The notes: generated by a model not told the origin, from the sequence alone. 64,000 nt of DNA from a virus (IMGVR_UViG_3300044842_000203:1-64000), one strand, 5' to 3'. Counted from the stretch's first letter, positions 8,243-38,421 are shown. Numbers and translations: made by a program.

Positions 8243-8251
8243 GGTTTCCCC

Positions 8252-8950
8252 TCAGCCCGGCGGGATGGTCAGCACCAGCCCTGCATGGATGTTGCCCGGA
8301 TCTTGGATCTTGTCACGATTCGCGTCATAGATCAGAGGCCATTTATCCCCCGACCCGTAGGTCTTCGCGCTGATTCCCCACAGCGTGTCACCCTGCGCCA
8401 CGGTGTAGGTGGTTGCCGGGGCCGTCGCTGCGGCCTTCGCTGGCGCTGGCTGCGGCGCGGCCGGCACCGAGGTGGGACCTACCCCCAACGCAGGATCGCT
8501 GGCTCGGGTCAGCGTGATGTCTGCGCTGCCCTGGATGATCCGGTTGCTGGTGGGATGGCGAATCGCGGAGTGCACAATCAGCGCGGTGATGCGCCACAGT
8601 CCGGCCTCGTGATCGCTGTAGCGGAACATGATGCGCTCATTGGACTTCGCGATGTTGCGCAGCGTGTCGATGTAGCCGTTCTGCTCCTCGAACACATCAG
8701 TTTTTGAGGCGATCTGAATGCTGAATTTGAGTGTGTCCAGTTTGTCGGCCTTGCGCACCAGCAGCGGCACCAGGCCAACCCGGTCAACCTCCACCCAGTC
8801 CTGCTCCAGCGTGCCGTACTCGATGACCGGCGGCGCGAACTGGAAAGTGAAACTCAGTGAGCCGGTCTCGGTGAGGAAGTAGGCGCGAGCACCGGGCACG
8901 GCGGTGAAGTTGACTCCGGTGACTGGATCGCGGATAACAGCAAGCGCCAC
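8252..8950 (-). CDS. Tube initiator / LysM protein
   Basis: C-terminal LysM YTVAQGDTLWGIS..IYDANRDKI; follows tape measure. Confidence 0.85.
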   Translation of the reverse strand: MALAVIRDPVTGVNFTAVPGARAYFLTETGSLSFTFQFAPPVIEYGTLEQDWVEVDRVGLVPLLVRKADKLDTLKFSIQIASKTDVFEEQNGYIDTLRNIAKSNERIMFRYSDHEAGLWRITALIVHSAIRHPTSNRIIQGSADITLTRASDPALGVGPTSVPAAPQPAPAKAAATAPATTYTVAQGDTLWGISAKTYGSGDKWPLIYDANRDKIQDPGNIHAGLVLTIPPG

Positions 8951-22307: not shown

Positions 22308-23657
22308 TCAGGCGCTCGCGGCGGCCAGGTCGACCTTGACCATCGCGGCCGGGCGGTAAACCGCCAAACCGAGCCGCTCTTCCGCCAGCACCACGATCGC
22401 GTTGCGGATGAAGAAGTCGGCGTGCTGGTCGCTGGTCCTGATGTTCGACTGCATGCGGTCAAACACCTGCGCGCCCAAACCGAACGCACCCACCAGTGCA
22501 GTGCCCTCCGGAATAGCCGGGGTGGCGACAACCGGCATCTGCCATAGCCGCTTCTCCGCACCGGAAACCACAGACCCGGCCACCAGGTAGCGGCCTTGGG
22601 TGTCCTTGGTCAACTCCATGCGCTCCCAGTCATACGGGTGCACAACAATGCCCGTGGGGTCGTACTGGGCGAGCATGACGCGAGTCGCGGCACGCCGAAT
22701 GGCGTCAACGTAAGACTCGTTGGTGGGCGGGGTGTAGCTGCCACTGGGGAACAGCTGAATACCGGGGGTGTTGAAGATGCCCAGCAGGTTCTGGCCCGTG
22801 CCGTCACCCAGCAGGATCTGCTCGTCTTCGACGAGCTTGAGGCCGTACATCAGGCGGGTGTCGATGATGCCGCGCAGCTGCGGTTCGTCATCGAGCACGT
22901 TGCGCGATGCCGGCACCCAGTGGGCCAGGGTGCGGATCGGCGTGGTCTTGATGTTGAAGCGAATGTTCGACTTCGGCTTGAGACCGAAGTTGTCATTCGG
23001 TGCAACGCCTTCGCGCTCGGGAACCATCGCGGCGGCGTTGTCGGCGGGGTCGACGAACCCAAGCTCCTCGATGAACTCGATCATCACGGAGCTGGTGTTC
23101 ATCTGCGGGAACAGATCACGCACCCGGTAGTTGATCATCGGGGCGGAAACCATCGGCGCCCGCTGTACAGTGCCGAACCCAGGATGCGTAACGACGCCAA
23201 TGCTGCCGGAATGCACATCCTTGAACTGCACCTGCGACGTCAGCTCCACATCGCTGACCTCAAACGCCTCATCCATGAAACCCGAGGAGCGGTGATTCTT
23301 AAACGCCTCAGACTCCACAAACCGCTGACCCAGCGACTTGTACTCGGCCACCGCAGACGGAACCATCGACTGTCCCGGCGCCAACGCGGCCGGCGTGCCC
23401 GCGGGGGCATCCAGCCACGCATCCAGCTCACTCTTGCGCTCCAGCGCACGAATAACGCCGTAGGTTTCCTCAGCCTTGTCCAGCAGGCCCTTGTACTCGG
23501 TGAAAGCCTCCGGCTTGACGTGCATGTTGCCCTGCTCGTCCAGCCAGCCGGATGCGGCGATCTCATCCAGCTTCGCGTTGATCGACTTGATTTCTGCCCG
23601 GCCGCGCTTAATCAGATCCTTGTCGTCGCGGTCGAGCACGGGGGCGTCAGTTGGCAC
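22308..23657 (-). CDS. Major capsid protein, HK97 fold
   Basis: EDEQILLGDGTGQNLLGI, FIRNAIVVLAEERLGLAVYRPAA; coiled-coil delta domain ending EYKSLG. Confidence 0.95.
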   Translation of the reverse strand: MPTDAPVLDRDDKDLIKRGRAEIKSINAKLDEIAASGWLDEQGNMHVKPEAFTEYKGLLDKAEETYGVIRALERKSELDAWLDAPAGTPAALAPGQSMVPSAVAEYKSLGQRFVESEAFKNHRSSGFMDEAFEVSDVELTSQVQFKDVHSGSIGVVTHPGFGTVQRAPMVSAPMINYRVRDLFPQMNTSSVMIEFIEELGFVDPADNAAAMVPEREGVAPNDNFGLKPKSNIRFNIKTTPIRTLAHWVPASRNVLDDEPQLRGIIDTRLMYGLKLVEDEQILLGDGTGQNLLGIFNTPGIQLFPSGSYTPPTNESYVDAIRRAATRVMLAQYDPTGIVVHPYDWERMELTKDTQGRYLVAGSVVSGAEKRLWQMPVVATPAIPEGTALVGAFGLGAQVFDRMQSNIRTSDQHADFFIRNAIVVLAEERLGLAVYRPAAMVKVDLAAASA

Positions 23658-23799
23658 GCGCCTACTCCCTTGTGCTCAGGTGGGGGAGTGCGGGCAGCTG
23701 ACAGCGAGCCTCACGCACTCCGAGGTCTCGCACCGGTCAGCACCAGGCGCGTGCGCGGAGGCAATCAGATAAACAACCGACCAGGCCAGCGACACGCCG

Positions 23800-24518: not shown

Positions 24519-27500
24519 CTAGCCCACCGTCGCCGGAACCGGCTGCATCTGCAACGCGGCACCACAGGAGATGCACGCGCGCTGCCCGTTCATTCCATCC
24601 GCCGGGTAGTACATGGTGTTACCGCACGACGGGCACGTGACCGCCTTGAGCAGCTGACCATCGGCGGCCATCACATAGGGCACATCGGCGGCCACCACAT
24701 CCTCGAACGACTCCTCGTCCGCGTCCGGGGCCCCAGACACGGCGGTGTCGGCTTTCAGCTCAGCCTTGAGTTGCGCCGCGCGAGCCAGCAACTCCGCGTC
24801 GAGCAGGGACTTGCCCTCCGATTGTGGCTGCACGAGGTGTCGCTTCCACACGTCCACCACCTGCTGCTTGTCCGCCTTCACCCGCGCCTCGCGTTCCTCC
24901 TGCTGCGCCTTGCGCCGTTTCGAGTTCTCCTCGTACGACAGCGCGTAGTCGTGCTCGTAGGGCACGTACGTTGACCAGCGGCGTTGCAGCGCGGACGCGC
25001 CCTCATCCCAGGGGATGTCCAGGGCCTCCAGGTCGTTGAGCAGGGCTTGCGGGTCATCCACCTGCCCCGCCAGGCCACCGACACGGATGCTGTTGCCGTC
25101 CGCGGTGGTGATGAACTGCGTGCCGTCCGGAGTGGGCACCGCGGCGAGTGTGCCCTTCGGGGACACCACGGCGCCCGGTGATGCGGCCGGGTTGGCGAGC
25201 CGGCGCAGAATATTCCGCTCATCCTTCTGCCAGTTACCCATGCTCGCGGCTGCGCGGCCGGCGGCGGCGCGGGCGTTGGCCAGGGCGGTGGCAGCAGTGT
25301 TCTCCTGCCCATCCTCCCCGGTGGCCACGCCCACTTTCGCCATCTCCTCGGCAACGTGCGCCTGCTCGGTGCGGGCGGCGGCCAGCTCGTCAGCTTTCGC
25401 GAACGGCAGCCCGATGCGGGAGCGCATCTGCTCAGCCTCGGATTCGAGGAAATCGGCGCGGTCCCGCAGCCTCGCTTGGCGGGCCTCGAAACCGTTGAGA
25501 TTGTTGGCCAGGGTGGTGAAGATGCCCGGCCCGAGAGTGGCGATCTGGGTGTCGTTAAGCCGCACCACGGGCCCCAGTTCGTTATCCACACCATCCCAGG
25601 ACAGGTCGATGCCGAACTTCCGGGCACCGGTCTTGTCGTAGTAGGACTGCACCTTGCCCATGAGGTCGTGCCCGCCGAAGGTACCCAGGTAGGTGGGTTC
25701 GGCGCGCCGCCATGAGGGCTGGTTGTAGATGGCGTCACGGATGGCGCCTTTGAGCCCGTCAGCGGCATCGGCGCGGGAAGTGAACTTGTGCCCTCCGGCG
25801 GTGAATGCGAAGTCCTCGCCGGAGGTGGTGTCGGTGCGTTTCGCGATGGCCGCATCGAGGGCGTCGGCGCGGGCCCGGTTGCGCTGCGCGGTTTGGGTGT
25901 AGGTGAGCACGTCGTTGCGCAGGTTGGTTTGCGTGCGGTTGTGCTGGCGCTCCATCCGGGCGAGCTTGGACACCGCGGCGTCGACTTTCGCCTTCTGCAT
26001 GAGCAGCGGGTTGCCGGTGGCCAGGGCTTTCACCTCGGCGTAGGACAGGGCGGTGTCGCCAACGTCTTCCAGTTCGCGCACGTCACCGAGTTTGTTGCGC
26101 ATGATCTGGTCGATGAACTTCTTTTTGCGCTCCAGGGTTTGCCACATGTAGGCGTCGAAGGAGCCTTCGGTGACGTAGCGGTAGATCGCCACGGTGGCGT
26201 TGGTGTTGCCTTGGCGCATGATGCGCCCGTCGCGTTGTTCCACATCGGCGGGCCGCCACGGGGCATCGAGGTGGTGCAGGGCCACGGCGCGGCGCTGCAC
26301 GTTGGTGCCGACACCCATCTTCTCGGTGGACCCGATGAGCACGGCCACTTGACCGTTGCGGGCGGCGGCGAACAACTCCGCCTTTTCGCGGTCGTTTTTC
26401 GCCTCGTGCATGAACCGGATCGACTCACGTTTCATGCCTTTAGCGACCAGGGCGTCGCGCAGCGCGTCGTAGGCGTTCCACCCGTCGGAGGTGGGGGTGC
26501 CCATGTCGGCGAACACGATTTGCATCGAACCGGGCGGTGGGCAGTCGCCCCCGGCGGGGTCGTTGATGTCACAGGGAACGGGACGGTCTTTTGTCTTATC
26601 CCAAATGTCGTAAATCTTGTCAGCGGCGGCCTCAACCTTGCCCGGCTTGTGCTCTTGGCCGACCAGAGCCATGGACAGTGCGGCTTTACGCCCATCGGTG
26701 GAGATTTTCAGCATATTGTCGACTTCGGGTTCCACCGCGCCCGAGCGCACGTCCTCGGCCCGCTCACCCAGCTCGGCAATGTAGGCCGTTAGCTCCGGAG
26801 AGGGGGGCACGATCACGTTTTGCACTGCCCCGGTCTCCAGATTCGGGGTGGGCAGTTTCAGATCATCGGCCATCTTCACATCGGCGAAGATTTGGAACAG
26901 CCGGAGCAGTTCGGGCACGTTGCGGAACTTCGCGAACCGGGTGGTTTGCCGGAACCCGGCACCCTCTGGCTTCAACTCCATTTCATCGACGGTCTGCCCG
27001 AAGGTGGCCGCCCACTGGTCGAACGAGTGGATACCGGCTTCCTCCAGCAGGTCAGGCCGCAGGAAGCGTTGCATGATGTAGGCCTGCGTGACCGTGTTGC
27101 GAATGGGGGTGCCGCTGGCGAAGGTGACCACCCGGCCGCTGGGGTTGTTGGCCCGCAGGTGTTCGATCTTCATGTGCAGGTCTGAGGCCATGTCCGAACC
27201 GGTGGCGCCCGCGCCCTGAATGTTGGATAGGGTGCGCAGGTTCGAATACATGTGCGCCTCGTCCACAAACAGGTAGTCGATACCCGTCTGTTCGAAGGTG
27301 ACACCAGCGTCTTTTTGCTTATCGAGTTTTGCCTTGAGGGCTTCCTCCGCTTTGAGGACGGCCTTCTCCATCTTTTTGATGGTTTTCTGCTGCGCCTGGT
27401 CGCCGAATTGGCCGCCCTCAGCTTTCGCGGCTTCCAGTTGGGCGCGCATCGTGGCGAGTTCCCGATCAATGTAGGACTGCATCGCCTCTTTCGACATGGG

Positions 27501-30500
27501 CACCATGCCCATGGCGTTCTGGGTGAGGATCACGCAATCCCAGTCCCCGGTGGCGGCGCGGGCCACGAACTCCCGGCGCCGATCACCCTTCAAATCGTCC
27601 GTGCCCGCGGCGAGGATCTTCGCATTCGGGTAGATCTGTAAATACTCGCGCTCAAACTGCTCTTTCATGTGGTTGGGAACCACAATGGCGGGCTTCTTAG
27701 CCATGCCGAGGCGCTTGAGTTCGTGCGCGCCCATGGCCATCTCGCCGGTCTTGCCCGCGCCCACCACGTGCGCGAGCAGCGCCGCCGGCTCGGACACGAT
27801 GCGGTTGACCGCGGCGACCTGGTGCGGGCGAGGGGTGAAACCCTCCGCCATGTCGGGGAACACCCGGTCCATGTCGTCGTAGTTGCGCAGCCGCACCGCG
27901 TTGAACTGGTTGTTGTAGTTGCGCAGCAACCGCTGGGCGCGGGTCGAGTCTTCCCACAGCCACTCGGAGAACCGCTCCTGTAGCTCCTCCGCTTTGGCCT
28001 GCGCGGCGGCGGTGGCCTCCAGGTTCGGGTACTGCTTGCCGTCGATCGTGTCGGAAATCTTGATGGAACGCTGCTCCAGCAGGGCCTGCACGATCTCTCC
28101 GGCGGAGATCCGGTCGGTGCCCCACTGCTCGGTGGCTTTGTTGCCCCAGTCGGCGCCGGTCACCGTCCAGATGCCGCCACCGGAGGTGGCGACCTTCACC
28201 GGGTCAGTGTTGCCGTCGTAGATCAGGTCGGCGAGGAATTGGCGCACATCATCGGCGGGGATCCACGCCGCGCCCAGGCGCCCATCCACCTCGTCGACAC
28301 CCAGGTCGGTAGGGATGACGGCCTTGAGCGCATCAACGTTGGCCTGGAAACGCTGGTCGTGTTCGGCGGCGGCCTGTGCGGCGGCGAGTTTGCGGCGCAC
28401 ATTCCCGGACAGGTAGGCGGCGGCGGGTTCGAGTTTGCCGGCGGCCCGCACCGACTCGCCCACCGATTCGAGCGCGGGCGGTTGGCCGTCAAGCCCACCG
28501 AGCGGATCAACATCGGCGGTGTAGTTGCTCCACGCCTGATTCTGCTCAGCCTCCGTCAACGGGGGCTGCTCGAACACCAGCGTGCCCAGCCGTTCGCGGG
28601 CGGTGGACTCATCAGTGCCGAGCATGTCGGCGATGGCCTTGAGATTCACCTCGCCGTAGGTGTCCAGGGACAGGGCGAGCGCATCCTCGGGGGTGTCGGC
28701 TTTGGTGGGGATCTCGCGTGGGGCCACGGCGCGCTTGGTGAAGATGGCGGTCTTCGACCCGGTGCCGGCCTCGGGGTCGTACACCTCCAGGGCGCGCACG
28801 ATCGCTGACATGGGGTCGCGCCTAAAGCCACCCTGACCGGGGGTGACCCGCGAGCCGGTCTTGGACAGGCTGTAGCGGTTGATCGGCCCGTAGCGGGCGA
28901 CGTAGGCGTCGTACTGGTCATTGAGGTCGCGGCGCAGCTGCCGGATCTGCGTCGTGTCGGCGGCGGTGGTGGATTCGGCCTGCAACAGCTCACGCAGGGT
29001 GTCGCGTAGCCCGATCAGGGCGCGCAGCTCCTCGGCCTGTTTGGCGGGCACATCCAGCGGCACCGCGGCACCGCCCACAATCTGGGTGAACCCGCCGTCG
29101 GGGCCGGTGGCGATGTAGCCGTCGTGCGCGTCGGCGGCTTCGGTGATCTGCGCGGTGCCTTCCAGCCGGGGACTGGCGGTGACCCCGCCTGTCTGCGCGG
29201 CGCTAGTGATGCCTTCCAGGGCGTGGTTCAGGTCATCGGGCAGGGTGTCCTGGTCACCCCGCACGATCATGTCGCCGGTGCCGTAGCGGCCCTTTTCGGC
29301 GGTCATTTCGCCGAGCACGTGGTCGGGGTGGTCCAGGAAGTATTGGTTGACGGGAATGTCTTGCCCGCCCAGGTGGGTGACGGGGGCGTTGATCCAGTCT
29401 TGGCTGGTGAGTGGTTCAGCGCCGGGTTCACGGCGCCGGAAAATGAGGATGTCTTCGATGACGCTGGTACCGGCGGTTTTCGAGTGTGAGCCGGTGGGCA
29501 GCCGGACGGCGCCGATCAGGTCACCCATCTCGGCCATGCGCCGCCGGGCGTCGGTGCTCTTGGAGTCCATCGTGTAGCGGGAGGTGAGCAGCGCGCAGAT
29601 ACCGCCCGGTTTGGTGGCCGCCAGGCTCTTGATGATGAAGTGGTTATGGATCGAGAGTTTCCGGCCGGGGTTGTGTACCCGGTCGGTGAGGGCGAAGTCC
29701 CCGAAGGGCACGTTGCCCACCACGGCATCCATCGACCCGGCTGGTAGGCGGGTGTCCGCAAAGGACTCATTGCGGATCGTGGCGCTCGGGTAGAGGGCCT
29801 TGGAGATCGCCGCGGTGGTGGAGTCCAGCTCCACACCCACCATGTCGACGTCGAGGTGGTGCGGCTTGAAACCAATGAACGTGCCCGAGCCGGAGCCTGG
29901 CTCCAAGACCTGCCCACCGTCGAAGCCGAGGTCTTGCACGGCCTTCCAGATGGCGGCTACTGCGTTGGCGTCGGTGTAGTGGGCGTTGAGAGTGTTGCGG
30001 CGGGCCTCCGCCCACTCTTTATCCGAGAGCAGCCCGCGTAGGCGCTCCCGATCGGCGGCGTACTCCGGTTTGGTGTCGTCGAACACCTCCGGCAAACCAC
30101 CCCAGCCGGCCCAGCGGGCCAGTACCCGCTGCTCATCGGGGGTCGCCGGGCGGTGCTCGTTTTGCAGCTGCCGCAAAACTTCGAGGGCGGCGATGTTCGC
30201 GTTGAGTTTCGCCCGCTTCCCGGCGGGGGCGAGGTCATCGGCGTTGACCGGGCGGAAGTCCTCACCCTCCGACGGGATCGCATCAACCTGCCCCCGGTCC
30301 ACGCCGGGCTGCTCGTCGGGCAGATCCGTGGACACCGATGCAGGGGCCTCACCCCCGGCGGCGTCGAGCTGCCCCCGGTCTTCCCGCTCGCCTTCGGTGA
30401 CCGGGTGGTCTACTCCGCCGTCGCGCTGCTCAGGTACTCCGGTTTCGCCGGCAGTGTCGGCTGGCTCGCCCTCGCCGCGTCCCGCTTCTGCTGCGCCAGC

Positions 30501-33500
30501 TCGCTCGCCGCGTCGCTGAACTCGGCCATCGCCTCCGCCAGGTTCACGTCGGTCGCGTCCGGTGTCGGCGGCATCTGCGGATCCGGTGTCGCCTGGTCCG
30601 GGTACCCGTTCGTCTCGGGCCAGTCCGGGGGCAGCAGCGCCAGCAGTGTCTGCCGCATCACCAGTTCCGTCGCCTGCGCCCTCGCCGCGTTCAGCCGCCC
30701 CGCCTTCTCCTCGAACGTCTCGTTCGGCGGGTCGTCCCCCGCCAGGGCTTCGCTCACCTGCTCGATCTCCTGCGCCGCCTGCTCCCCCAGCGTCCCGAAG
30801 AACGTCGCCCTCTCCGTGGGGCTCATCCCGTCGTACGCCTGCGGGAGGTACTGCTGGTACCACTGCTCCGCCAGCGCGGCTAGCGGACTCGTCTGCGCCA
30901 TGGGCATCAGTTTCCCCCTCGTGACGGCGCTGCTGCTCATTGATGATGCCGCGGGCCTTGTTCCACAGTCGCGCCCGCTCGGGGTTGAGTTTCTGCGCCT
31001 GGTCGAGGTGCCCGTGGGCGGTGTCGAACTCGCCGTTGTCGGCGGCGGCGCGGGCGGCGCGCATGTGGTTTTGCGCCTTCGCGGCGGGGGTGTCGCCTTC
31101 GACATCGGGCACGTGGGCGCGGGCGCGCTGCCGGGCGGCCAACTCGTCGGCGATGGCGCCGTTCTTTTCGTCCTCGGTCTTGGGTAGTGGAACCCGCACT
31201 TCGATCTCGTGGTTGTCGCCCCACGAGGTTTTAGTTACGCCCAGGTCTTGCACGGTCATACCGGGCCAGCCCAGCTCGCGAACCGCACCCATGACCTTCT
31301 GTGCGGATTCGTCGCTGTCGGCCCACACTCGGTGAACAGCTACCCCGTCAACAACGCGGGAACCTGCGCCTCCGCCACCACCGGGGATCTTTTGGGCCAC
31401 GCCGTTAAGGGCGTAAGTGCGAGCGCGCGCCGTGCCGGGCAGCTCGGTCTCCGCGCGGGTCTTAGACGGCGCGGGGGTTGAAGCCGAAGACCCAGGAGGT
31501 GAAGGTGTCTCCGCAAGAGATGACCCGGCCTCTGGAGTTTTCGCCACCCGCGCCGCGGGCACCGTAACACCCTCCACGTGCCCGCCGTAGGTCTCGGGGT
31601 CTTCACCCCGGCCGCGCAGCTCCCCATCAATCGCGCCGATCTTGGAGCGGATGCGGTCCCGTTCGATGCGCTTCGCGGCGCGCCGGGCGCGGGCCTGCTC
31701 ATTACGCTTGACCCGCCGACCTTCCCGCAGGTTCCCCGCGGCGGTGAACAGCATGCCCGGTGTGAGCGCCCCGGAGGCGATGGCGGCGTGCACATCACCG
31801 TCACCGAGGGCGCGGCGCACCTGCGTGAACGCCGGGGAATCAGCCGGATGCTTGGCCAGCAGTTTCCCGAACCGATCCGCGGCGGTTTTGATGGCCGCCT
31901 CGTCCCGCTCGGGGGCGTTCAGTAAATCGCCCAGATCTTCCGCGGCGCCGGCTAACCCTGGTCGGGTCGTGGGCGTCTTAGGCTCGGCGGGCGTCCCGGT
32001 GTCCGAGGTGCCCCCCACGCTCGGCTCCGGGGCGCCCGACTTGCTCACCGCGTTCTTAGCGGCTTTATCGCGGCGATCCAGTTCGGTTTGCAACGCCAGT
32101 TCGGCGACCAGATCTTTACGGGCGTCACCGAGCTGCGCGGTCGTTTTGTTGGCGAGCGCGGCGTCGTCCTCGGCGAGCAGGGCCTCCACCCGATCCTGCC
32201 GGTCGGCGACTTCGGGGGTGACGTCTAGTTCCCCGTCGGGGCCTTCGATGAGTCCGTGCTCATCGGGAGTGGCTTCGGGTTCGGGGCCGGGCGCGGGCGC
32301 GGCATGATCGTCGAGAGCCCCGGTGGCGGCGCGCTGGGCGGCCTCGTGCGCGGCGCGCTGCCGCTCGTCGGTGGGTAGACCGGCGGAGGCGTCCATGCTG
32401 CGCTGGGTGGTGGATTGCGCCTGGATGGCGTCGAGACGTTTCTCCACCACATCCGAGGGCAGCACGAGCAGGGTTTGCGCGACGTCGTGCGGGTCCTGAT
32501 CGTCGGGCAGGCCCATGCGGGTGAGGGCGTCGGCGAGGTCATCAACGTTGCCGTCGGCGATGGCGCCTTCGGCGTCGTACCGGGCCTGTGAGGTGTCGAC
32601 GTTGGTGGTGTCGAACGGGGTGAGTGAGGCGAGGATGTCCCGAACGGCCTGCTGGTCTTTGGTTTTGACCGAGGCTTTCGTCCACCGCTTACGTCGAGCG
32701 TTGATGTCACCCCAGGGGATGGGTAGGGCGGCGAGTTTCGCCAGCGCGTCGTCGATCTGCGCGGGGGGGAAGTTGCCGGGGGCGACGGGCATGAGCCCGG
32801 CGTTGGCGGTGTCGACGATCAACCAGTTGCCGTCGGCGCCTTTCACCGCGGCGAACTGCCCATCGGGGGAGGCGTGCACGTCGGCGCCGGGGGTGGCGAA
32901 TTGAGTGAGCATGTTCATGCTCGCGATGGCCGCGTTGCCGACGCCGACCTGTCCGGGGTCGCGGTCTTGTGAGGCGAAGTCCTGGTAGCGCTTGTGCAGC
33001 GCGGCGAGCGCGGCGGCAACCCCTGGTCGCACCGCGGCGGGGGTGGGCGTATGGTCGCCGACCGCGGCAGCCCCGGTAGCCATCGCCTGCTGGCCAGACT
33101 CGGCCGGGGCTGCCGCCACGGCGTGGGCGGCATGACCGATCGCAGGGCCGGTGTCGAGGGTTTCCGCGGCCTCGGCGGGCGCGGTGGTGCGTTCAATGTC
33201 GGCGGCGGTGGCGTGGGATTTGCCGCGGGGGCGCATGCCGGGGCGGATGGGGGTGCCGATGGGCAGACCCCAGAACGTGGAGTCACGGACAACGCGGCGG
33301 CCGAGGCCGTGGAGTGCCTTCACGTCGATGGTCCCCTCGACGGGTGAACTGCCGGAACACCCATCAGGATACCAGTCGTCGGTGTCGTCTTGCTGCGGCC
33401 GAACGTGTTCAGCGAGGGATTTCACCCCCGTTAACGTGGCCAGTGGGTGCGCTCCGTGCAAAACTTGCGACCACTCATAAATGTCGTAATCGTGTAAGTA

Positions 33501-34025
33501 GCGCAGACCGCGGCGTATTTTCGCCCCACCGGGGCGCACCTTGTAACCGATCGAAAAACATTCCTCGGGGCCGTAGAATTTCGCGTCTGAATAAGCATCC
33601 CGGCCGGCTTGCTTATCCATGTTGTACTGGGCTTTGATCAGCAAGCCGCCCGCGGCAGCTGGCCACGGCTTACCATCCGGGGTTTGCTTCGGCAGGCGCG
33701 GGTCGCCGGGCATCAGCTCCTCGGAGTAGACCAGCTTGGAGACCTTCTGCCCCCAGTTGTGATCCGTCACACCCTTGGGCTTCAAGCGTTTCACCGCGGT
33801 ACCCAGGCTGCCGGGCACGATGACGTCGCCCACCTTGTCGGGCACGCCGGAGACAGCGACGATCGCGGTGATCGTGCCTCTGGAGTCGTCGTGACCGATC
33901 ACCCCCGTCAGGGGTGATGACGTCTCCTCGTTCGGCAGCGCCTTCCATTCCAGGCGCCCCGACTCCCCCAAATCGGCCGGAAATTCAATCTCGTCAAGCT
34001 CCAGCCGGGTTTCGGTTGTGGTCAT
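24519..34025 (-). CDS. Giant polyvalent protein: HK97-type prohead protease + DarB-like N6-adenine methylase + SNF2 helicase + Zn ribbon
   Basis: Protease D.VGDVIVPG, DHNW, FSIGY, EWSQV..GA; MTase VLEPGSGSG, GNVPFG; helicase HVVGAGKT, DEAH, SGTP, QRDGRIMRQGN; C-terminal CPSC..CISC. Confidence 0.92.
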   Translation of the reverse strand: MTTTETRLELDEIEFPADLGESGRLEWKALPNEETSSPLTGVIGHDDSRGTITAIVAVSGVPDKVGDVIVPGSLGTAVKRLKPKGVTDHNWGQKVSKLVYSEELMPGDPRLPKQTPDGKPWPAAAGGLLIKAQYNMDKQAGRDAYSDAKFYGPEECFSIGYKVRPGGAKIRRGLRYLHDYDIYEWSQVLHGAHPLATLTGVKSLAEHVRPQQDDTDDWYPDGCSGSSPVEGTIDVKALHGLGRRVVRDSTFWGLPIGTPIRPGMRPRGKSHATAADIERTTAPAEAAETLDTGPAIGHAAHAVAAAPAESGQQAMATGAAAVGDHTPTPAAVRPGVAAALAALHKRYQDFASQDRDPGQVGVGNAAIASMNMLTQFATPGADVHASPDGQFAAVKGADGNWLIVDTANAGLMPVAPGNFPPAQIDDALAKLAALPIPWGDINARRKRWTKASVKTKDQQAVRDILASLTPFDTTNVDTSQARYDAEGAIADGNVDDLADALTRMGLPDDQDPHDVAQTLLVLPSDVVEKRLDAIQAQSTTQRSMDASAGLPTDERQRAAHEAAQRAATGALDDHAAPAPGPEPEATPDEHGLIEGPDGELDVTPEVADRQDRVEALLAEDDAALANKTTAQLGDARKDLVAELALQTELDRRDKAAKNAVSKSGAPEPSVGGTSDTGTPAEPKTPTTRPGLAGAAEDLGDLLNAPERDEAAIKTAADRFGKLLAKHPADSPAFTQVRRALGDGDVHAAIASGALTPGMLFTAAGNLREGRRVKRNEQARARRAAKRIERDRIRSKIGAIDGELRGRGEDPETYGGHVEGVTVPAARVAKTPEAGSSLAETPSPPGSSASTPAPSKTRAETELPGTARARTYALNGVAQKIPGGGGGAGSRVVDGVAVHRVWADSDESAQKVMGAVRELGWPGMTVQDLGVTKTSWGDNHEIEVRVPLPKTEDEKNGAIADELAARQRARAHVPDVEGDTPAAKAQNHMRAARAAADNGEFDTAHGHLDQAQKLNPERARLWNKARGIINEQQRRHEGETDAHGADESASRAGGAVVPAVPPAGVRRDEPHGEGDVLRDAGGAGGAGDRAGERSPGGGRPAERDVRGEGGAAERGEGAGDGTGDAADTAGAAAPGLARDERVPGPGDTGSADAADTGRDRREPGGGDGRVQRRGERAGAAEAGRGEGEPADTAGETGVPEQRDGGVDHPVTEGEREDRGQLDAAGGEAPASVSTDLPDEQPGVDRGQVDAIPSEGEDFRPVNADDLAPAGKRAKLNANIAALEVLRQLQNEHRPATPDEQRVLARWAGWGGLPEVFDDTKPEYAADRERLRGLLSDKEWAEARRNTLNAHYTDANAVAAIWKAVQDLGFDGGQVLEPGSGSGTFIGFKPHHLDVDMVGVELDSTTAAISKALYPSATIRNESFADTRLPAGSMDAVVGNVPFGDFALTDRVHNPGRKLSIHNHFIIKSLAATKPGGICALLTSRYTMDSKSTDARRRMAEMGDLIGAVRLPTGSHSKTAGTSVIEDILIFRRREPGAEPLTSQDWINAPVTHLGGQDIPVNQYFLDHPDHVLGEMTAEKGRYGTGDMIVRGDQDTLPDDLNHALEGITSAAQTGGVTASPRLEGTAQITEAADAHDGYIATGPDGGFTQIVGGAAVPLDVPAKQAEELRALIGLRDTLRELLQAESTTAADTTQIRQLRRDLNDQYDAYVARYGPINRYSLSKTGSRVTPGQGGFRRDPMSAIVRALEVYDPEAGTGSKTAIFTKRAVAPREIPTKADTPEDALALSLDTYGEVNLKAIADMLGTDESTARERLGTLVFEQPPLTEAEQNQAWSNYTADVDPLGGLDGQPPALESVGESVRAAGKLEPAAAYLSGNVRRKLAAAQAAAEHDQRFQANVDALKAVIPTDLGVDEVDGRLGAAWIPADDVRQFLADLIYDGNTDPVKVATSGGGIWTVTGADWGNKATEQWGTDRISAGEIVQALLEQRSIKISDTIDGKQYPNLEATAAAQAKAEELQERFSEWLWEDSTRAQRLLRNYNNQFNAVRLRNYDDMDRVFPDMAEGFTPRPHQVAAVNRIVSEPAALLAHVVGAGKTGEMAMGAHELKRLGMAKKPAIVVPNHMKEQFEREYLQIYPNAKILAAGTDDLKGDRRREFVARAATGDWDCVILTQNAMGMVPMSKEAMQSYIDRELATMRAQLEAAKAEGGQFGDQAQQKTIKKMEKAVLKAEEALKAKLDKQKDAGVTFEQTGIDYLFVDEAHMYSNLRTLSNIQGAGATGSDMASDLHMKIEHLRANNPSGRVVTFASGTPIRNTVTQAYIMQRFLRPDLLEEAGIHSFDQWAATFGQTVDEMELKPEGAGFRQTTRFAKFRNVPELLRLFQIFADVKMADDLKLPTPNLETGAVQNVIVPPSPELTAYIAELGERAEDVRSGAVEPEVDNMLKISTDGRKAALSMALVGQEHKPGKVEAAADKIYDIWDKTKDRPVPCDINDPAGGDCPPPGSMQIVFADMGTPTSDGWNAYDALRDALVAKGMKRESIRFMHEAKNDREKAELFAAARNGQVAVLIGSTEKMGVGTNVQRRAVALHHLDAPWRPADVEQRDGRIMRQGNTNATVAIYRYVTEGSFDAYMWQTLERKKKFIDQIMRNKLGDVRELEDVGDTALSYAEVKALATGNPLLMQKAKVDAAVSKLARMERQHNRTQTNLRNDVLTYTQTAQRNRARADALDAAIAKRTDTTSGEDFAFTAGGHKFTSRADAADGLKGAIRDAIYNQPSWRRAEPTYLGTFGGHDLMGKVQSYYDKTGARKFGIDLSWDGVDNELGPVVRLNDTQIATLGPGIFTTLANNLNGFEARQARLRDRADFLESEAEQMRSRIGLPFAKADELAAARTEQAHVAEEMAKVGVATGEDGQENTAATALANARAAAGRAAASMGNWQKDERNILRRLANPAASPGAVVSPKGTLAAVPTPDGTQFITTADGNSIRVGGLAGQVDDPQALLNDLEALDIPWDEGASALQRRWSTYVPYEHDYALSYEENSKRRKAQQEEREARVKADKQQVVDVWKRHLVQPQSEGKSLLDAELLARAAQLKAELKADTAVSGAPDADEESFEDVVAADVPYVMAADGQLLKAVTCPSCGNTMYYPADGMNGQRACISCGAALQMQPVPATVG
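30410..30907 (-). CDS. TnpV-like protein nested out of frame within the giant gene
   Basis: RBS GAGGGGG before ATG; protein W.QYLP.AY..TFF.TLGEQAAQEIE..LAGDDPP.E.F.EK.GRLN.AR.QA.ELV resembles actinobacterial TnpV-like proteins; host frame here is low-complexity G/R/A. Confidence 0.7.
   Translation of the reverse strand: MPMAQTSPLAALAEQWYQQYLPQAYDGMSPTERATFFGTLGEQAAQEIEQVSEALAGDDPPNETFEEKAGRLNAARAQATELVMRQTLLALLPPDWPETNGYPDQATPDPQMPPTPDATDVNLAEAMAEFSDAASELAQQKRDAARASQPTLPAKPEYLSSATAE
33323..33374 (-). promoter_or_regulatory. Internal early-type promoter + RBS + in-frame GTG inside giant gene
   Basis: TGG-TATCCT-N6-TGTTCCGGC, then GAGGGG 9 nt before GTG (residue 235). Confidence 0.65.
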
Positions 34026-35902
34026 GCACTCACCGACCCCACATCGAAGAGATCAGGCAGCCCACTGCCGCTGTCCTCGCCCGCATCGCCGCCATCTGCA
34101 CTGGCGTCCGGGACGTCGCCACCGGGGCCGGAGTCGGGGATCATGCGCGCGGCCAGCTGGGCGTGGCGGGCGGTGTCGAGCAGCACCCCCGTGCCGTCGT
34201 CGACGTCACCATCTGGCTCGCCGTCGGGCCCGTCGGCCTCGTCACCGAGGTCGGCGATGTAGCCCGCGGTCCACGGCTCATCGAACTGCTGACCCCAGTC
34301 GTCGATACCGTCGAACAGGGCGGCGATCTCTGGGTCGGTGTCGACGGCCATCGCGGCGGCCTTGGTTTCGATGTCTTCGGACCAGTCGAACTTCACGCCG
34401 ATGGTCAGTGGCTTGCCCACGTTGCCCTTGAGGGTGTGCGCGTTTTTGCCGGGCCACTGGCCGGTGGCCATCTTGTGGATGTTCGCGGTGAGGCCGTTGA
34501 GCACCTTCGGGTTGTGCACGAACTTCGCGAGGTGCCGGCGTAGGCGCTTGAAATCGCCCTTGGAGCCGGGGCGCCACTTCTTGCGGCCCTTCGGGTTGAA
34601 GGCCCAGAAGTTGCGCAGTTTCGCAGCTCGCGGATCAGGGGAAGCGACCTTCACCTCAATGCCGTCTTCGAGGGACTTGCCTTCGGTGGTGGCCTGCTCC
34701 AGGGAGCCGATGCGCTGGGTGATGTGGTGGTCGGCGCCGAGCCGCTTCGCGGCGCCTTTGAGCCGGCGCGCGTTGGCTTTGCGCTTCTCCGGGGGCAGCT
34801 TGTGGTGCGCGCCGATCGCGTTGTGCAGGTCTTGGATGGATTGCAGCGCGGGGTCGTCGTCCGGGTCACCGTCGGCACCAACCCGGCGGCCCATGTTGAG
34901 CCCCTTGTGCTCGGACTTGTCGTCGGCGTCCCCATCGTCCTCGCCGCTGCCCAAATCCTGAATCTTGTCGATCATCTCTTGCCCGGCATTGAGCCGGCGG
35001 GCCTCTTTCAACAGCAGGCGCTTGAGCGCATCCCGGTCGCCGGGCTTGGCCCGCCCCCACGACTGGTAGGCGTTGTCGAGGTCACCGAGTGTCTTGATTG
35101 GGTAGGACTTGGTGCCTTTGAGGGTGTGCCCCTGTTTTGCGAGCTTTTCGCGCTCATCGGTGGAGATGTCGCGTTTCACTTCGAGGGCGCGTTCGCGCAT
35201 CGACGCCGCCCACATCAGGCCGATCTCACCGCAGTTGGCGCCCACCCAGTCGACGCCGCGCGTGTTAAGGGCTTTGCCTTCAGCGACGATCCGGGCGACG
35301 GGGCCGGGCAGGATCGCGGCCACCTCGATGATCTCGGCCGGCGGGGTGAAGGTGATCTCGCCGGATTTCGTTTCAGTGATCACGGGTGCCTCCGCATCGC
35401 CGAGGGGAACGTCGAGCACGTCGCCGGCCAGGGCGAGGCGCAGTGTGGAGAACCGCACCGGGCCGGTGAAGGTGAGCTGATCAGGGTTCAGGCCATAGCC
35501 CGCAGTCACGTGAAAGATCACGGGATCATGCTGCGCGGGCGGGGTCGGGTAGTCGTCGTGCGTAGTGGTCACCCACTGTGCCCACTTGCGTAGCGGGTTG
35601 AGCGCGGGGGAGTCACCCACCAGGTAGACGGCGCAGGGCTGCGGCCCGTCGTCGCTATCGCCCCCGTCGGGGTTGAAGATGGCGTGGCCCATGATGCGGG
35701 CATCCACCGGGTCGAACGCGGGCGCCGATGCGGTGACCAGTTCGCGCAGCCGGGCGGACTGCTCGGGCGCCCAGTCGGCCACGTTGTCGCCGAGGTAGAG
35801 CAGGGTGAGGTGCATCTGCTCCGGCGGGTCGCCCCCATCGACGGCCAGCTGGCCGGCGTTGTCGGGGACCAGGCCGAGGAATCCGCCCGTGTATTCAGTC
35901 AC
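34022..35902 (-). CDS. Multidomain head protein: 2H phosphoesterase (Acb1/LigT-like) + small helical domains
   Basis: Two HxT motifs (MHLTL, FHVTA); YPIKTLGDLDNA..GRA domain plus a degenerate copy; KLRNFW..GDF.R..H...TGQWPG domain. Confidence 0.8.
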   Translation of the reverse strand: MTEYTGGFLGLVPDNAGQLAVDGGDPPEQMHLTLLYLGDNVADWAPEQSARLRELVTASAPAFDPVDARIMGHAIFNPDGGDSDDGPQPCAVYLVGDSPALNPLRKWAQWVTTTHDDYPTPPAQHDPVIFHVTAGYGLNPDQLTFTGPVRFSTLRLALAGDVLDVPLGDAEAPVITETKSGEITFTPPAEIIEVAAILPGPVARIVAEGKALNTRGVDWVGANCGEIGLMWAASMRERALEVKRDISTDEREKLAKQGHTLKGTKSYPIKTLGDLDNAYQSWGRAKPGDRDALKRLLLKEARRLNAGQEMIDKIQDLGSGEDDGDADDKSEHKGLNMGRRVGADGDPDDDPALQSIQDLHNAIGAHHKLPPEKRKANARRLKGAAKRLGADHHITQRIGSLEQATTEGKSLEDGIEVKVASPDPRAAKLRNFWAFNPKGRKKWRPGSKGDFKRLRRHLAKFVHNPKVLNGLTANIHKMATGQWPGKNAHTLKGNVGKPLTIGVKFDWSEDIETKAAAMAVDTDPEIAALFDGIDDWGQQFDEPWTAGYIADLGDEADGPDGEPDGDVDDGTGVLLDTARHAQLAARMIPDSGPGGDVPDASADGGDAGEDSGSGLPDLFDVGSVSA

Positions 35903-37431: not shown

Positions 37432-38421
37432 TCAGTTCAGGGGCAGCTGAATGTCGGCGACGTCGAGGACTGCATTCAGCGCCGCGATCTGGCTGTTAAC
37501 CACCGGGGCCGTTGGAACGAGCACGCGACGGGCGCGTAGTCGGGCCGGACTCTGAGCCTCGGTCTCGCCCTGAATCTTCTGGTGCCACTGAATCCACTCC
37601 AGCATGGCCTGGTAGTCGCCCCACGCGGTGCCCACGATGCCCCGGTTGGTGTCGCCGTGGCGGATCACCATCATCTGCTCGACCTTGGTTTCGAAGCGGG
37701 TGAGGGTGGCGGGGGCGTCCCCGCGGCGGGGGAACGCGCGCTCGATCATGGCGCGGAACTGCTCGTCGGTGGTGCGCTGGGCGAGCATGATCTCAGCGTC
37801 GCGTTTCGCGGTGGTGAGTGCTTTAGCGGAGTTGGTGAGGATTTCGGCGGCCATCTTGTGCCGCATGTCGATGCGCTTGGTGTGCCGGATGATGACGCGG
37901 CTGGTCTCTTGTGAGATTTGCGGCTGCTGATTGGCGCAGAAGATGCGGGTACCGGTGGGGGCCATGACGTTCGAGCCGGCGCCGTGGGACATGAATGCAG
38001 CGATATAGGCCTCGATGGGGTCTCCGCCGGGGGAGATGGTGTCGGGCAGTTTGAGGGAGATGAAGGCGCGGGCCCCGAGGAGTCGGTAGTGCTCGACGTC
38101 GAGGTCTCCGGCGCGGTCGAAAGTGGCGCCGGTAGCGGCGGCCACGGTGTCGAGGACGGCGGCGACTTCCTCGTATTGGTAGACGGTGAAGTCTTCACCG
38201 ACGGTGATGTTGGGGAAGGGGATGTCGGTGCCGTCGGGTCCGTCGTGGACGAGGAGGTATTTGCCGTCGACCTGGTAGCCGTTGTGGGTGATGGGAGCCT
38301 TGCGGACGTTCAGGTTGGCGAGTCCGGCGGCGGCGAGTGCATCGGAGGCTTCGCGGGCGTGGGTGACGGCGGTGCCGAGGGCGGTGAATGGGTTGGGCGG
38401 GGGGGCGATGGCGACGGTCAT
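37432..38421 (-). CDS. DUF932 (phage/plasmid TIGR03299-like) protein
   Basis: SHGAGS..TRIFCANQ..IRHT..GTAWG.YQA. Confidence 0.8.
   Translation of the reverse strand: MTVAIAPPPNPFTALGTAVTHAREASDALAAAGLANLNVRKAPITHNGYQVDGKYLLVHDGPDGTDIPFPNITVGEDFTVYQYEEVAAVLDTVAAATGATFDRAGDLDVEHYRLLGARAFISLKLPDTISPGGDPIEAYIAAFMSHGAGSNVMAPTGTRIFCANQQPQISQETSRVIIRHTKRIDMRHKMAAEILTNSAKALTTAKRDAEIMLAQRTTDEQFRAMIERAFPRRGDAPATLTRFETKVEQMMVIRHGDTNRGIVGTAWGDYQAMLEWIQWHQKIQGETEAQSPARLRARRVLVPTAPVVNSQIAALNAVLDVADIQLPLN

What the first reader, a model, noticed from the sequence alone, without database searches (positions are those of the whole stretch)
30410..30907. TnpV-like gene overprinted in a different frame inside the giant ORF
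Seen: a 165-aa same-strand, out-of-frame ORF with its own RBS (GAGGGGGAAACTG-ATG) lies just upstream of the MTase domain. Its product looks like a normal helical protein, while the giant frame over the same bases is G/R/A/D-rich low-complexity sequence typical of off-frame reading. Known from recollection: TnpV-like genes sit next to methylase-helicase genes in conjugative elements. Inference: the fusion arose by read-through across an ancestral tnpV-helicase cassette and both frames are retained, a natural dual-coding region that annotation pipelines would miss.
Basis: partly seen in the sequence, partly recalled or inferred. Interest (0 to 1): 0.82.

Follow-up and report, generated by a model that had tools for sequence, protein, structure and literature searches.

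The report
TnpV-like gene nested inside giant gene
A small, conserved TnpV-like gene is written one base out of step inside the flexible-linker part of a giant phage head-protease/methylase/helicase gene, and actinobacterial plasmids show the same layout, so one stretch of DNA almost certainly encodes two proteins and annotation mishandles it.

Summary
A 165-codon ORF (30410-30907, minus strand) with its own Shine-Dalgarno site lies in the +1 frame of a 3168-codon ORF. Over these bases the codon-position GC signature switches to the nested frame.

The nested product belongs to a large family of small helical proteins (1106 cluster representatives). Many plasmid members are annotated "TnpV protein", but Pfam TnpV is matched only below its cut-off.

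Two other phage contigs share the layout. So do 13 actinobacterial plasmid loci, so it is not a phage accident:
- The helicase frame is always tnpV frame +2.
- That frame has no stop across tnpV in 16 of 16 loci (joint chance about 1e-9).
- In plasmids it starts upstream of tnpV, with its own SD and a conserved N-terminal peptide whose differences are all synonymous.

Selection acts on the tnpV frame (dN/dS 0.20-0.26 in plasmids, 0.43-0.64 in the phage N-domain). The outer frame is only kept open, as a Gly/Arg/Ala/Asp-rich linker.

The phage replaced the short N-terminal peptide with a head-maturation protease plus about 830 residues. TnpV function remains unknown.

This scan had already noted the same nesting on other DNA (Firmicute elements). 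I found no publication describing it.

The parts
24519..34025 (-). Giant outer ORF, 3168 codons, a polyvalent virion protein gene. Order: head-maturation protease, about 830 aa unknown, linker, N6-MTase-like region, SNF2 helicase (DarB-like), C-terminal region.
   Evidence: The ORF is continuous. PHROG 10089 'DarB-like antirestriction' matches at E = 0, and Pfam ResIII and Helicase_C also match. It lies between the portal gene (40796-42532) and the major capsid gene (22308-23675).
33390..33899 (-). Head-maturation protease domain (giant aa 43-212).
   Evidence: PHROG 80 'head maturation protease' matches at E = 4.1e-14. Pfam and PDB sequence searches found nothing. The AF2 model from 3 sequences was poor (pLDDT 39.9).
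30909..33389 (-). Giant aa 213-1039. Function unknown, with modular indels between relatives and a weak TPR-like end.
   Evidence: No PHROG match. TPR hits fall below cut-off. dN/dS is 0.24-0.76 in the giant frame. A three-phage alignment shows the indels.
30914..30920 (-). Shine-Dalgarno sequence GAGGGGG of the nested gene, 6 nt before its ATG.
   Evidence: Read directly from the sequence. L004 has GGGAGAA at a similar spacing. All plasmid tnpV genes have strong SD sites. L006 has only a weak, distant one.
30410..30907 (-). Nested TnpV-like gene, 165 codons plus TAG, in the +1 frame of the giant ORF.
   Evidence: Translation. GC3 is 0.94-0.98. AF2 gives pLDDT 87.3 and five helices. Family-conserved residues are kept. 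dN/dS of the N-domain is 0.43-0.64.
30411..30908 (-). Giant aa 1040-1205, a Gly/Arg/Ala/Asp/Glu/Pro-rich linker encoded by the alternative frame of tnpV.
   Evidence: 84% G/R/A/D/E/P and 7% hydrophobic. No stop in the 3 phages or in 13 plasmid loci. dN/dS is 0.93-1.4, so the sequence is not conserved and only the frame is kept open.
30234..30410 (-). Variable spacer after the tnpV stop, up to the conserved helicase-family N-terminal motif (F-R-P...D-D-L-A-P-A-G). It holds in-frame GTG codons at 30335 and 30302 that could give an extra, shorter product.
   Evidence: Alignment with plasmid helicase N-termini. Motif and start-codon positions.
29226..30245 (-). Conserved N-terminal helical region plus methyltransferase-like region (giant aa 1261-1600).
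   Evidence: PHROG 37568, 9133 and 3820 (DNA methyltransferase) match. 84% aa identity to L004 with dN/dS 0.16.
25290..28439 (-). DarB-like SNF2 helicase region (giant aa 1863-2912).
   Evidence: PHROG 10089 best stretch covers aa 1863-2912. Pfam ResIII covers 2063-2262 and Helicase_C covers 2533-2606.

Best explanation
The 498-base ORF is a functional TnpV-like gene embedded in the +1 frame of a giant polyvalent gene. It sits exactly where the outer gene encodes a disordered linker.

**Two proteins from the same DNA**
- Ribosomes that start at the giant gene's ATG (34025) read frame X through the overlap, because X has no stop. They make head-maturation protease, about 830 aa, a G/R/A/D-rich spacer, methylase and SNF2 helicase (DarB-like). 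This is presumably a capsid-packaged, injected anti-restriction protein.
- Ribosomes that start independently at the internal SD-ATG (30920/30907) make a 165-aa helical protein.

**Origin**
- The nesting is inherited from an actinobacterial conjugative-plasmid module. There the methylase-helicase ORF starts with its own SD and a short conserved basic peptide just upstream of tnpV, then traverses all of tnpV.
- The phage lineage swapped that peptide for a virion-targeting module. A Micromonospora plasmid swapped it for a DnaG-type primase module.

**Selection**
- Selection keeps the amino-acid sequence of TnpV. For the outer frame it keeps only openness and length modulo 3.

**Shown versus inferred**
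- Shown: the two frames, homology, conservation, the selection signatures, the upstream helicase start in plasmids and the phase conservation.
- Inferred: that both are translated in this phage, virion packaging, and that TnpV acts together with the methylase-helicase, perhaps by binding its N-terminal/methylase part. The biochemical role of TnpV is unknown.
For: **1. Nested frame is coding**
- GC3 is 0.94-0.98 in the nested frame over the overlap in the window. The same frame switch is seen in L004, L006 and plasmid L002.
- Homologues: plasmid tblastn to E = 1e-10 with 'TnpV protein' annotations; 13 database proteins, ten of them 51-78% identical and roughly full length; 1106 cluster representatives at E <= 1e-3 and 641 at <= 1e-10, mostly 90-200 aa stand-alone proteins.
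- AF2 gives pLDDT 87.3 with five helices.

**2. Still under selection in the phage clade**
- The top family-conserved residues are all invariant or nearly so (A13, P22, F37, L40, G41, G57, E63, R71, A75, A79).
- Columns conserved in the free-standing family vary less within the phage clade (Spearman -0.30, p = 0.0016).
- dN/dS over the first 94 codons is 0.43-0.64 in the nested frame and 1.25-1.38 in the giant frame.

**3. Same layout elsewhere**
- Two further phage contigs share it: L004 (63% aa identity) and L006 (50%). Each has a continuous giant ORF and the nested ORF at +1.

**4. The outer frame is truly read across tnpV, family-wide**
- The helicase frame equals tnpV +2 in all loci with a helicase. 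Annotated start distances are 386 to 539 nt, all 2 mod 3. Distances from the tnpV stop to the DLAPxG motif are 27-174 nt, all multiples of 3.
- There are no stops in that frame across tnpV in 16 of 16 loci. Per-locus synonymous-shuffle P(open) is 0.004-0.78. The product over about 11 lineages below 60% identity is about 1e-9.
- The null is calibrated: 100 ordinary 140-codon segments were open 0.16 of the time against 0.185 expected.
- In several plasmids no ATG, GTG or TTG lies between the tnpV stop and the conserved helicase motif.
- An SD plus ATG or GTG and a conserved peptide (M-A-R/G-R-K..G-Q-L-S-F..L-W) lie upstream of tnpV in the helicase frame.
- Between L003 and L009, all 7 nucleotide differences in those 75 nt are synonymous in that frame.

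**5. Close plasmid pairs**
- dN/dS is 0.20-0.26 in the tnpV frame, 2.6-4.0 in the outer frame over tnpV, and 0.06-0.08 in the helicase proper.

**6. Giant gene identity and place**
- PHROG 10089 DarB-like (E = 0) and PHROG 80 head-maturation protease (4.1e-14) match. The gene lies between portal and capsid.

**7. Possible partnership (weak)**
- A complex prediction of TnpV-like protein with giant residues about 1245-1965 scored 0.56; the best of 3 controls scored 0.00.
- The mark was reached by 58 of 80 solved complexes and 2 of 110 mismatched pairs. At 0.60 or under it was reached by only 7 of those 80 and by both mismatches that passed.
- Runs agree in at least 29% of contacts, and partner pLDDT is at least 53.
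Against: - There is no direct expression evidence (RNA, Ribo-seq or peptides) for either product.
- In the phage clade, selection on the nested frame is weaker than in plasmids. Overall dN/dS is 0.71-0.86, and the C-terminal 70 codons are about 1.0-1.4 in both frames.
- Restricted to the three phage sequences whose DNA I could read, the conserved-column test is not significant (Fisher p = 0.12).
- L006 has only a weak, distant SD.
- Openness of the outer frame in the three phages alone is unremarkable (P(open) 0.45, 0.09, 0.61).
- The nested state of nine of the twelve phage-clade proteins could not be checked, because their contigs could not be fetched.
- The nested protein does not match Pfam TnpV itself, and its fold has no informative match. 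Its function is therefore unknown.
- The binding prediction is only a weak pass.
Confidence: 0.8

Rival explanations
1. Relic: the giant fusion protein is the only functional product in this phage. The TnpV frame would be a decaying remnant of the captured plasmid module and no longer expressed.
For: - Phage-clade dN/dS in the nested frame is only 0.71-0.86 overall and about 1 or above in the C-terminal part.
- L006 lacks a good SD.
- The nested frame could stay open partly through composition.
Against: - The ORF is intact and the start codon is kept in all three phages despite flank dS of 0.7-1.6.
- Ten database proteins 51-78% identical are intact and roughly full length, though this set is biased towards intact ORFs.
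- The ten most family-conserved residues are invariant or nearly so, and variability tracks family conservation (p = 0.0016).
- N-domain dN/dS is 0.43-0.64, against above 1 in the other frame.
- The AF2 model is confident.
Confidence: 0.1
2. Separate cistrons: the giant ORF is an annotation artefact of a stop-poor frame in GC-rich DNA. The real genes would be an upstream head gene, tnpV, and a methylase-helicase gene starting after tnpV.
For: - In GC-rich genes the frame whose first position is the host gene's third position is often open. About 16% of ordinary 140-codon segments are open, and more at high GC3.
- PGAP annotates tnpV and the helicase separately in several plasmids.
- In-frame GTG codons exist after the tnpV stop in the window.
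Against: - The upstream coding frame has no stop anywhere, so ribosomes must run on. This holds in three divergent phages.
- In plasmids, the phase conservation, the 16 of 16 open frames (about 1e-9) and the missing start codons before the conserved motif all argue against it.
- So does the upstream N-terminal peptide under purifying selection. All four show the helicase frame is read across tnpV.
Confidence: 0.05
3. Programmed -1 frameshift: TnpV is the N-terminal domain of the helicase, joined by ribosomal slippage near the tnpV stop. The outer frame across tnpV would not itself be translated.
For: The helicase frame is always -1 (+2) relative to tnpV, and the two overlap. This geometry also occurs in IS3-type orfA/orfB and phage G/GT frameshift pairs (established knowledge).
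Against: - No conserved X_XXY_YYZ heptamer lies near the tnpV 3' ends in 16 loci.
- The outer frame is open over the whole of tnpV, not only its end.
- It has its own SD, start codon and selected N-terminal peptide upstream of tnpV.
Confidence: 0.03
4. Chance ORF or assembly error (two compensating indels) in a GC-rich window.
For: GC-rich DNA has many long spurious ORFs (92 ORFs of 80 aa or more in 18 kb).
Against: - The nested frame has strong homology.
- The same layout occurs in independent contigs and in finished plasmid sequences.
- The GC3 switch is clean.
Confidence: 0.01

Closest known systems
comS inside srfAB of Bacillus subtilis (from my own knowledge, not tested here)
   Same: A small gene with its own start is embedded out of frame, on the same strand, inside a very large multidomain gene. 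Both products are made.
   Different: comS is 46 codons and confined to close relatives. Here the nested gene has 114-185 codons and belongs to a family of over 1000 clusters. The pair is kept across actinobacterial genera and in phages. The outer frame over the overlap is only a spacer.
Rz/Rz1 spanin genes of phage lambda (established knowledge, from memory)
   Same: A complete gene sits in the +1 frame wholly inside another phage gene, and the two products work together.
   Different: Rz and Rz1 are both small, and their partnership is proven. Here the outer gene has 3168 codons, and a partnership has only conserved linkage and a weak complex prediction behind it.
TnpV of Tn4451/Tn4453-type elements (Pfam PF14198)
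   Same: A small helical protein of mobile elements. Actinobacterial relatives of the nested protein match PF14198 at E of 2e-5 to 1e-2, and PGAP names them 'TnpV protein'.
   Different: The window's protein does not match the Pfam model. All matches by relatives that I scored are below the 27-bit gathering score. The phage clade has an extra C-terminal half of about 70 aa.
Polyvalent proteins of phages and conjugative elements, and P1 DarB (Iyer et al. 2017, PMC5512222)
   Same: A giant multidomain protein with methylase and SNF2 helicase modules, delivered with the DNA. Toprim primase modules occur in conjugative-element versions, as in L002 (Pfam DNAG_N 33 bits).
   Different: That paper mentions neither TnpV nor overlapping genes. 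Here the cargo is fused to a head-maturation protease, and the inter-module linker doubles as the coding sequence of another gene.
Earlier notes of this scan on Firmicute ICEs, plasmids and phages (e1-3857211, e1-5236983, e1-1951285 and others)
   Same: They describe the same arrangement: tnpV in the +1 frame of the linker of a giant methylase/helicase gene.
   Different: Those are AI notes on other DNA that I did not re-test. The present case adds high-GC Actinobacteria, a head-protease fusion, and the selected helicase N-terminal peptide upstream of tnpV.

Membership tests
TnpV (Pfam PF14198) | Match to the PF14198 model at or above its gathering score (27 bits). | tested here: not met
   P0001 has no hit at E <= 0.01. 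A six-frame search of the whole virus record found none at E <= 1. Among relatives, the L003 TnpV scores 24.7 bits, P0015 scores 21.6 bits, and 13 of 63 family members reach E <= 0.01 (best 5e-5).
TnpV (Pfam PF14198) | Significant sequence similarity to proteins that curated pipelines name TnpV. | tested here: met
   tblastn against plasmids matched 33 records, many with 'TnpV protein' under the match. E-values to named TnpV genes are 2e-7 to 2e-4; the best hits overall (1e-10) are annotated hypothetical.
TnpV (Pfam PF14198) | Small, mostly helical protein encoded on mobile elements next to or within a methylase/helicase gene. | tested here: met
   The AF2 model has five helices at pLDDT 87.3. 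The gene lies at or inside helicase-related genes in 10 plasmid loci and 3 phage contigs.
Same-strand nested (embedded) overlapping gene pair | Both reading frames are intact over the whole overlap, beyond chance, across divergent relatives. | tested here: met
   16 of 16 loci have no stop in the outer frame across tnpV. Joint shuffle probability is about 1e-9, with a calibrated null. The nested frame is intact in all loci.
Same-strand nested (embedded) overlapping gene pair | Purifying selection on the nested frame. | tested here: met
   dN/dS is 0.20-0.26 in close plasmid pairs and 0.43-0.64 in the phage N-domain. Family residues are retained. The phage C-terminal part shows no such signal.
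Same-strand nested (embedded) overlapping gene pair | The outer frame is really translated through the overlap. | tested here: met
   This evidence is indirect. The conserved, SD-preceded N-terminal peptide upstream of tnpV shows only synonymous differences (7 of 7). Several plasmids have no alternative start before the conserved helicase motif. Phase and multiple-of-3 spacing are conserved. The phage's upstream coding frame has no stop.
Same-strand nested (embedded) overlapping gene pair | Both products detected experimentally. | not testable with these tools
   This needs Ribo-seq, mass spectrometry or tagged reporters.
Polyvalent / DarB-like virion anti-restriction protein | Methyltransferase plus SNF2-type helicase modules homologous to DarB-like proteins. 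| tested here: met
   PHROG 10089 matches at E = 0 (aa 1863-2912). PHROG 11801 and 3820 (DNA methyltransferase) and Pfam ResIII and Helicase_C also match.
Polyvalent / DarB-like virion anti-restriction protein | Packaged in the virion and injected; protects DNA from restriction. | not testable with these tools
   Only context supports this: an N-terminal head-maturation protease domain (PHROG 80, 4.1e-14) and a position between the portal and capsid genes.

The most novel reading that the evidence does not exclude
TnpV is an obligate partner of the polyvalent methylase-helicase, for example a chaperone, an inhibitor in the donor or producer cell, or a delivery adaptor. Writing it inside the partner's linker would then be a cis-coupling device: translation of the giant frame through the tnpV ribosome-binding site would set the ratio of the two proteins and make them inseparable by recombination. 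On this reading the pair is an ancient two-in-one module shared by conjugative elements and phages of Actinobacteria. If the scan's earlier notes hold, Firmicutes share it too.
Probability: 0.3. Interest if true: 0.8.

Novelty: new variant of a known kind. Interest (0 to 1): 0.62.

Why it matters
- **Rare class.** Long same-strand overlapping genes kept over large evolutionary distances are rare in bacteria and their mobile elements. Most claimed cases lack comparative support. Here a gene of 114-185 codons lies wholly inside another gene in plasmids of at least eight actinobacterial genera and in phages, with selection signatures that separate the two frames cleanly.
- **Origin of linkers.** A protein linker can be 'free' sequence whose only constraint is to stay open, so it can host a second gene.
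- **Systematic annotation error.** Helicase starts are placed on a TTG inside a conserved motif, conserved N-termini are cut off, or tnpV is swallowed whole.
- **A lead on TnpV.** It ties TnpV, a widespread protein of unknown function, to the anti-restriction methylase-helicase cargo of mobile elements.
- **The phage case.** It also shows a head-maturation protease used as the N-terminal module of such cargo.

Tried and rejected

The DNA of the nine closest metagenomic relatives (P0006-P0013 and the like) could not be fetched, so their outer frames are unchecked.
- Phage GenBank records gave no tblastn or blastn match.
- Metagenome scans gave nothing with the profile and one chance hit with a DNA pattern (L007, an unrelated ThiS/MoaD-like ORF). 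The genome contigs pattern scan found nothing.

**Family and fold searches on the nested protein**
- NCBIfam, Pfam and PHROGs gave no family.
- Foldseek against the PDB had no match at E <= 0.001.
- VIA-align wide gave a best Z of 5.8, which is within noise for helical models. No function can be read from the fold.

**Ideas considered and dropped**
- A -1 slip on the GGGGG run into the TGA at 30910: the motif is absent in L004.
- Classical -1 frameshift heptamers: none conserved.
- G-rich third positions as a sign of selection on the outer frame: free-standing relatives show the same bias, so it reflects TnpV amino-acid composition.
- Promoter scan of 29800-31800: none on either strand. The only terminator-like hits lie on the opposite strand.

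**Head-protease domain**
- Pfam and PDB sequence searches were negative, and the AF2 model was poor (pLDDT 39.9). Only the PHROG match supports the assignment.

**Low-GC phage giants L012, L013 and L015**
- tblastn with actinobacterial TnpV-like queries found nothing.
- L012 has a 96-codon +1 ORF at the equivalent place. It is not demonstrably TnpV-like (Pfam none, hhalign probability 0.5%).

Full report
**Observation**

The window is part of a 111.6-kb virus record with about 66% GC. On the minus strand a 3168-codon ORF runs from 34025 to 24519. Inside it, offset by 3118 nt and so in the +1 frame, a 165-codon ORF runs from the ATG at 30907 to the TAG at 30410. GAGGGGG lies 6 nt upstream of that ATG.

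A codon-position GC plot shows the giant frame carrying the usual high-GC signature on both sides (GC3 about 0.8-0.9, GC2 about 0.45). Between about 30920 and 30420 the signature moves to the nested frame, with GC3 of 0.94-0.98 and GC2 of about 0.48. The giant-frame translation of these bases is 84% G/R/A/D/E/P and 7% hydrophobic. The nested frame is 52% and 22%.

**What the nested frame encodes**

Pfam, PHROGs and NCBIfam give no family for the 165-aa product. Other searches do find relatives:
- tblastn against plasmids matches 33 actinobacterial records (E to 1e-10), many annotated 'TnpV protein'.
- A word-indexed protein search finds ten roughly full-length relatives of 51-78% identity.
- A profile search of 1.84 billion cluster representatives finds 1106 at E <= 1e-3 and 641 at <= 1e-10. 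Nearly all are small proteins of 90-200 aa.

Plasmid members match Pfam TnpV (PF14198) only below its gathering score. The best scores are 24.7 bits against a 27-bit cut-off, and 13 of 63 members reach E <= 0.01. So 'TnpV-like' is fair, but strict membership is not met.

With a 63-sequence alignment AF2 gives a confident five-helix model (pLDDT 87.3). It has no informative structural neighbour.

**The outer gene**

PHROG searches give three results:
- Residues 43-212 match head-maturation protease (4.1e-14).
- Residues 1863-2912 match 'DarB-like antirestriction' (E = 0).
- DNA-methyltransferase families cover residues 1261-1576.

The gene lies between the portal gene and the major capsid gene. 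It is therefore a polyvalent protein of the kind reviewed by Iyer et al. (PMC5512222), here fused to a head protease. That paper mentions neither TnpV nor overlapping genes.

**Relatives with the same layout**

Two other IMG/VR contigs, L004 and L006, carry homologous giant ORFs with the TnpV-like ORF at +1. Nested-protein identities are 63% and 50%. All show the same frame switch in GC. This rules out an assembly error.

**The nesting is a property of the plasmid module, not a phage accident**

I opened 13 plasmid loci from Paenarthrobacter, Arthrobacter, Micromonospora, Rhodococcus, Sinomonas, Kocuria, Microbacterium, Leifsonia and Thermobifida.

1. *Phase and spacing.* Wherever a helicase gene follows, its frame is tnpV +2. 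Annotated start distances are 386, 428, 491, 512, 524, 527 and 539 nt. The distance from the tnpV stop to the conserved helicase motif (D/E)-L-A-P-x-G varies from 27 to 174 nt and is always a multiple of 3.

2. *Open frame.* That frame has no stop anywhere across tnpV in 16 of 16 loci.
   - Shuffling synonymous codons gives per-locus probabilities of 0.004-0.78. L021 has 16 T-ending codons and a probability of 0.004; L016 has 0.014.
   - The product over about 11 lineages below 60% identity is about 1e-9.
   - On 100 ordinary 140-codon segments from the same loci the null was calibrated, with 0.16 observed open against 0.185 expected.

3. *No alternative start.* In L003, L009, L017, L019, L020 and L022 no ATG, GTG or TTG lies in the helicase frame between the tnpV stop and the conserved motif. 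PGAP's start in L003 is a TTG that is the Leu of the motif itself.

4. *Upstream start and peptide.* The helicase frame opens 31-226 nt upstream of tnpV. In most plasmid loci it has an ATG, GTG or TTG there, with a readable SD in six. It encodes a conserved basic peptide, M-A-R/G-R-K..G-Q-L-S-F/L..L/F-W. Database proteins P0169 and P0171 show the same peptide.

5. *Selection on that peptide.* Between L003 and L009 all 7 nucleotide differences in those 75 nt are synonymous in the helicase frame.

6. *Close plasmid pairs.* dN/dS is 0.20-0.26 in the tnpV frame, 2.6-4.0 in the helicase frame over tnpV, and 0.06-0.08 in the helicase proper.

Together these results show that the helicase protein starts upstream of tnpV and is read through it. 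Over the overlap only its openness and length are selected, while TnpV's amino-acid sequence is selected. No conserved -1 slippery heptamer exists, which argues against a frameshift fusion.

In Micromonospora plasmid L002 the short N-terminal peptide is replaced by a DnaG-type primase module (Pfam DNAG_N, 33 bits). PGAP annotates the whole ORF as one 2502-aa 'helicase', swallowing tnpV. The older pTC2 annotation does the same.

**Selection in the phage clade**

Flanking domains of the giant gene have dN/dS of 0.04-0.43 and dS of 0.7-1.6. Over the overlap the nested frame gives:
- 0.43-0.64 for the first 94 codons;
- about 1.0-1.4 for the C-terminal part;
- 0.71-0.86 overall.

The giant frame gives 0.93-1.4.

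The residues most conserved in the free-standing family are invariant or nearly so in twelve phage-clade proteins. Variability within the clade falls with family conservation (Spearman -0.30, p = 0.0016). With only the three sequences whose DNA I could read, the trend has the same sign but is not significant (p = 0.12).

The nested gene is therefore most likely still functional in the phage, under weaker constraint than in plasmids. A relic remains possible at about 10%.

**How it most likely works**

- Ribosomes starting at 34025 must read through the overlap, because the frame has no stop. They produce protease, about 830 aa, a disordered spacer of 166 aa, and the methylase-helicase. This is presumably a capsid-internal, injected anti-restriction cargo that the protease domain may also process (inferred).
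- Independent initiation at the internal SD-ATG yields TnpV-like protein (inferred from the conserved SD/ATG and the selection signatures).
- In-frame GTGs after the tnpV stop (30335, 30302) could add a shorter helicase product (speculative).

The universal linkage suggests TnpV works with the methylase-helicase. A complex prediction of TnpV-like protein with giant residues about 1245-1965 gave only weak support:
- The score was 0.56 and the best of 3 controls was 0.00.
- The mark was reached by 58 of 80 solved complexes and 2 of 110 mismatched pairs. At 0.60 or under it was reached by only 7 of those 80 and by both mismatches that passed.
- Runs agree in at least 29% of contacts, and partner pLDDT is at least 53.

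TnpV's biochemical role stays unknown.

**Comparison, novelty and caveats**

Embedded out-of-frame genes are a known kind; comS in srfAB and Rz1 in Rz are examples from my own knowledge. This pair differs in three ways: the length of the nested gene, its breadth across genera and element types, and the outer frame's role as a mere spacer.

My literature searches found no description of it. This scan's own earlier notes report the same tnpV-in-linker nesting on other DNA, mainly Firmicute ICEs, plasmids and phages. I saw those notes after reaching my reading and did not re-test them. They are not independent evidence.

Main caveats:
- There are no expression data.
- The head-protease assignment rests on a single PHROG match.

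Noticed in passing
L003:8841-8915 (+), also L009, L017, L023, L016, L019, L020, L022, and proteins P0169 and P0171: The plasmid methylase-helicase proteins begin with a conserved basic peptide followed by G-Q-L-S-F/L..L/F-W. P0171 and L022 also carry Q-V/L-E-L/F-D-L-W-G. From my own knowledge this resembles beta-sliding-clamp binding motifs of the Q-L-S-L-F type, such as the N-terminus of Hda. It could equally be a transfer signal. Not tested.
   Followed up: partly
L003:9303; L019:3519; L020:3549; L016:3393; L021:2602: Annotated helicase starts are inconsistent. There is a TTG inside the conserved D-L-A-P motif, two starts 57-147 nt downstream of the motif, and two starts inside tnpV. This is a systematic start-site problem caused by the overlap.
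   Followed up: yes
L010:7683-9480: In M. maris pVMKU the helicase frame is open from 1306 nt upstream of tnpV. Its close relative L002 has a DnaG-primase module there. The record instead annotates two minus-strand hypothetical genes (8249-8482 and 8570-8920), which are probably spurious.
   Followed up: partly
window 30042-31187 (+): An antisense 382-codon stop-to-stop frame with GC3 of 0.86 lies opposite the overlap. This is the usual mirror effect of a high-GC3 gene and not evidence of a gene.
   Followed up: no
window 31355-31625 (-), giant aa about 800-975: A variable module in the giant gene. The window has about 90 aa (…WADSDESAQKVMGAVRELGWPG…) that L004 and L006 replace or lack. The codon-position GC signal is irregular here.
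   Followed up: no
window 34022-35902 (-) and 37432-38421 (-): Two cargo-like genes lie between the portal and the giant gene. One is a 626-aa protein with a weak 2'-5' RNA ligase/2H-type hit (E = 3e-4, below cut-off), coupled by ATGA to the giant gene. The other is a DUF932 protein (E = 1e-26).
   Followed up: no
L012:5354-5644 (+): A low-GC phage giant ORF (over 3195 codons, 41% identical in the methylase region) has a 96-codon ORF in its +1 frame just upstream of the methylase region, the equivalent place. It has no Pfam hit, and the hhalign probability against the actinobacterial profile is only 0.5%, so it is not shown to be TnpV-like.
   Followed up: partly
L001:9004-9354, L018:3001-3417, L022:2959-3480: These TnpV-like genes have no intact helicase downstream. 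L018 keeps only a short helicase N-terminal remnant, and L022 looks degenerate after the motif. Even so, the +2 frame is still open across tnpV.
   Followed up: partly
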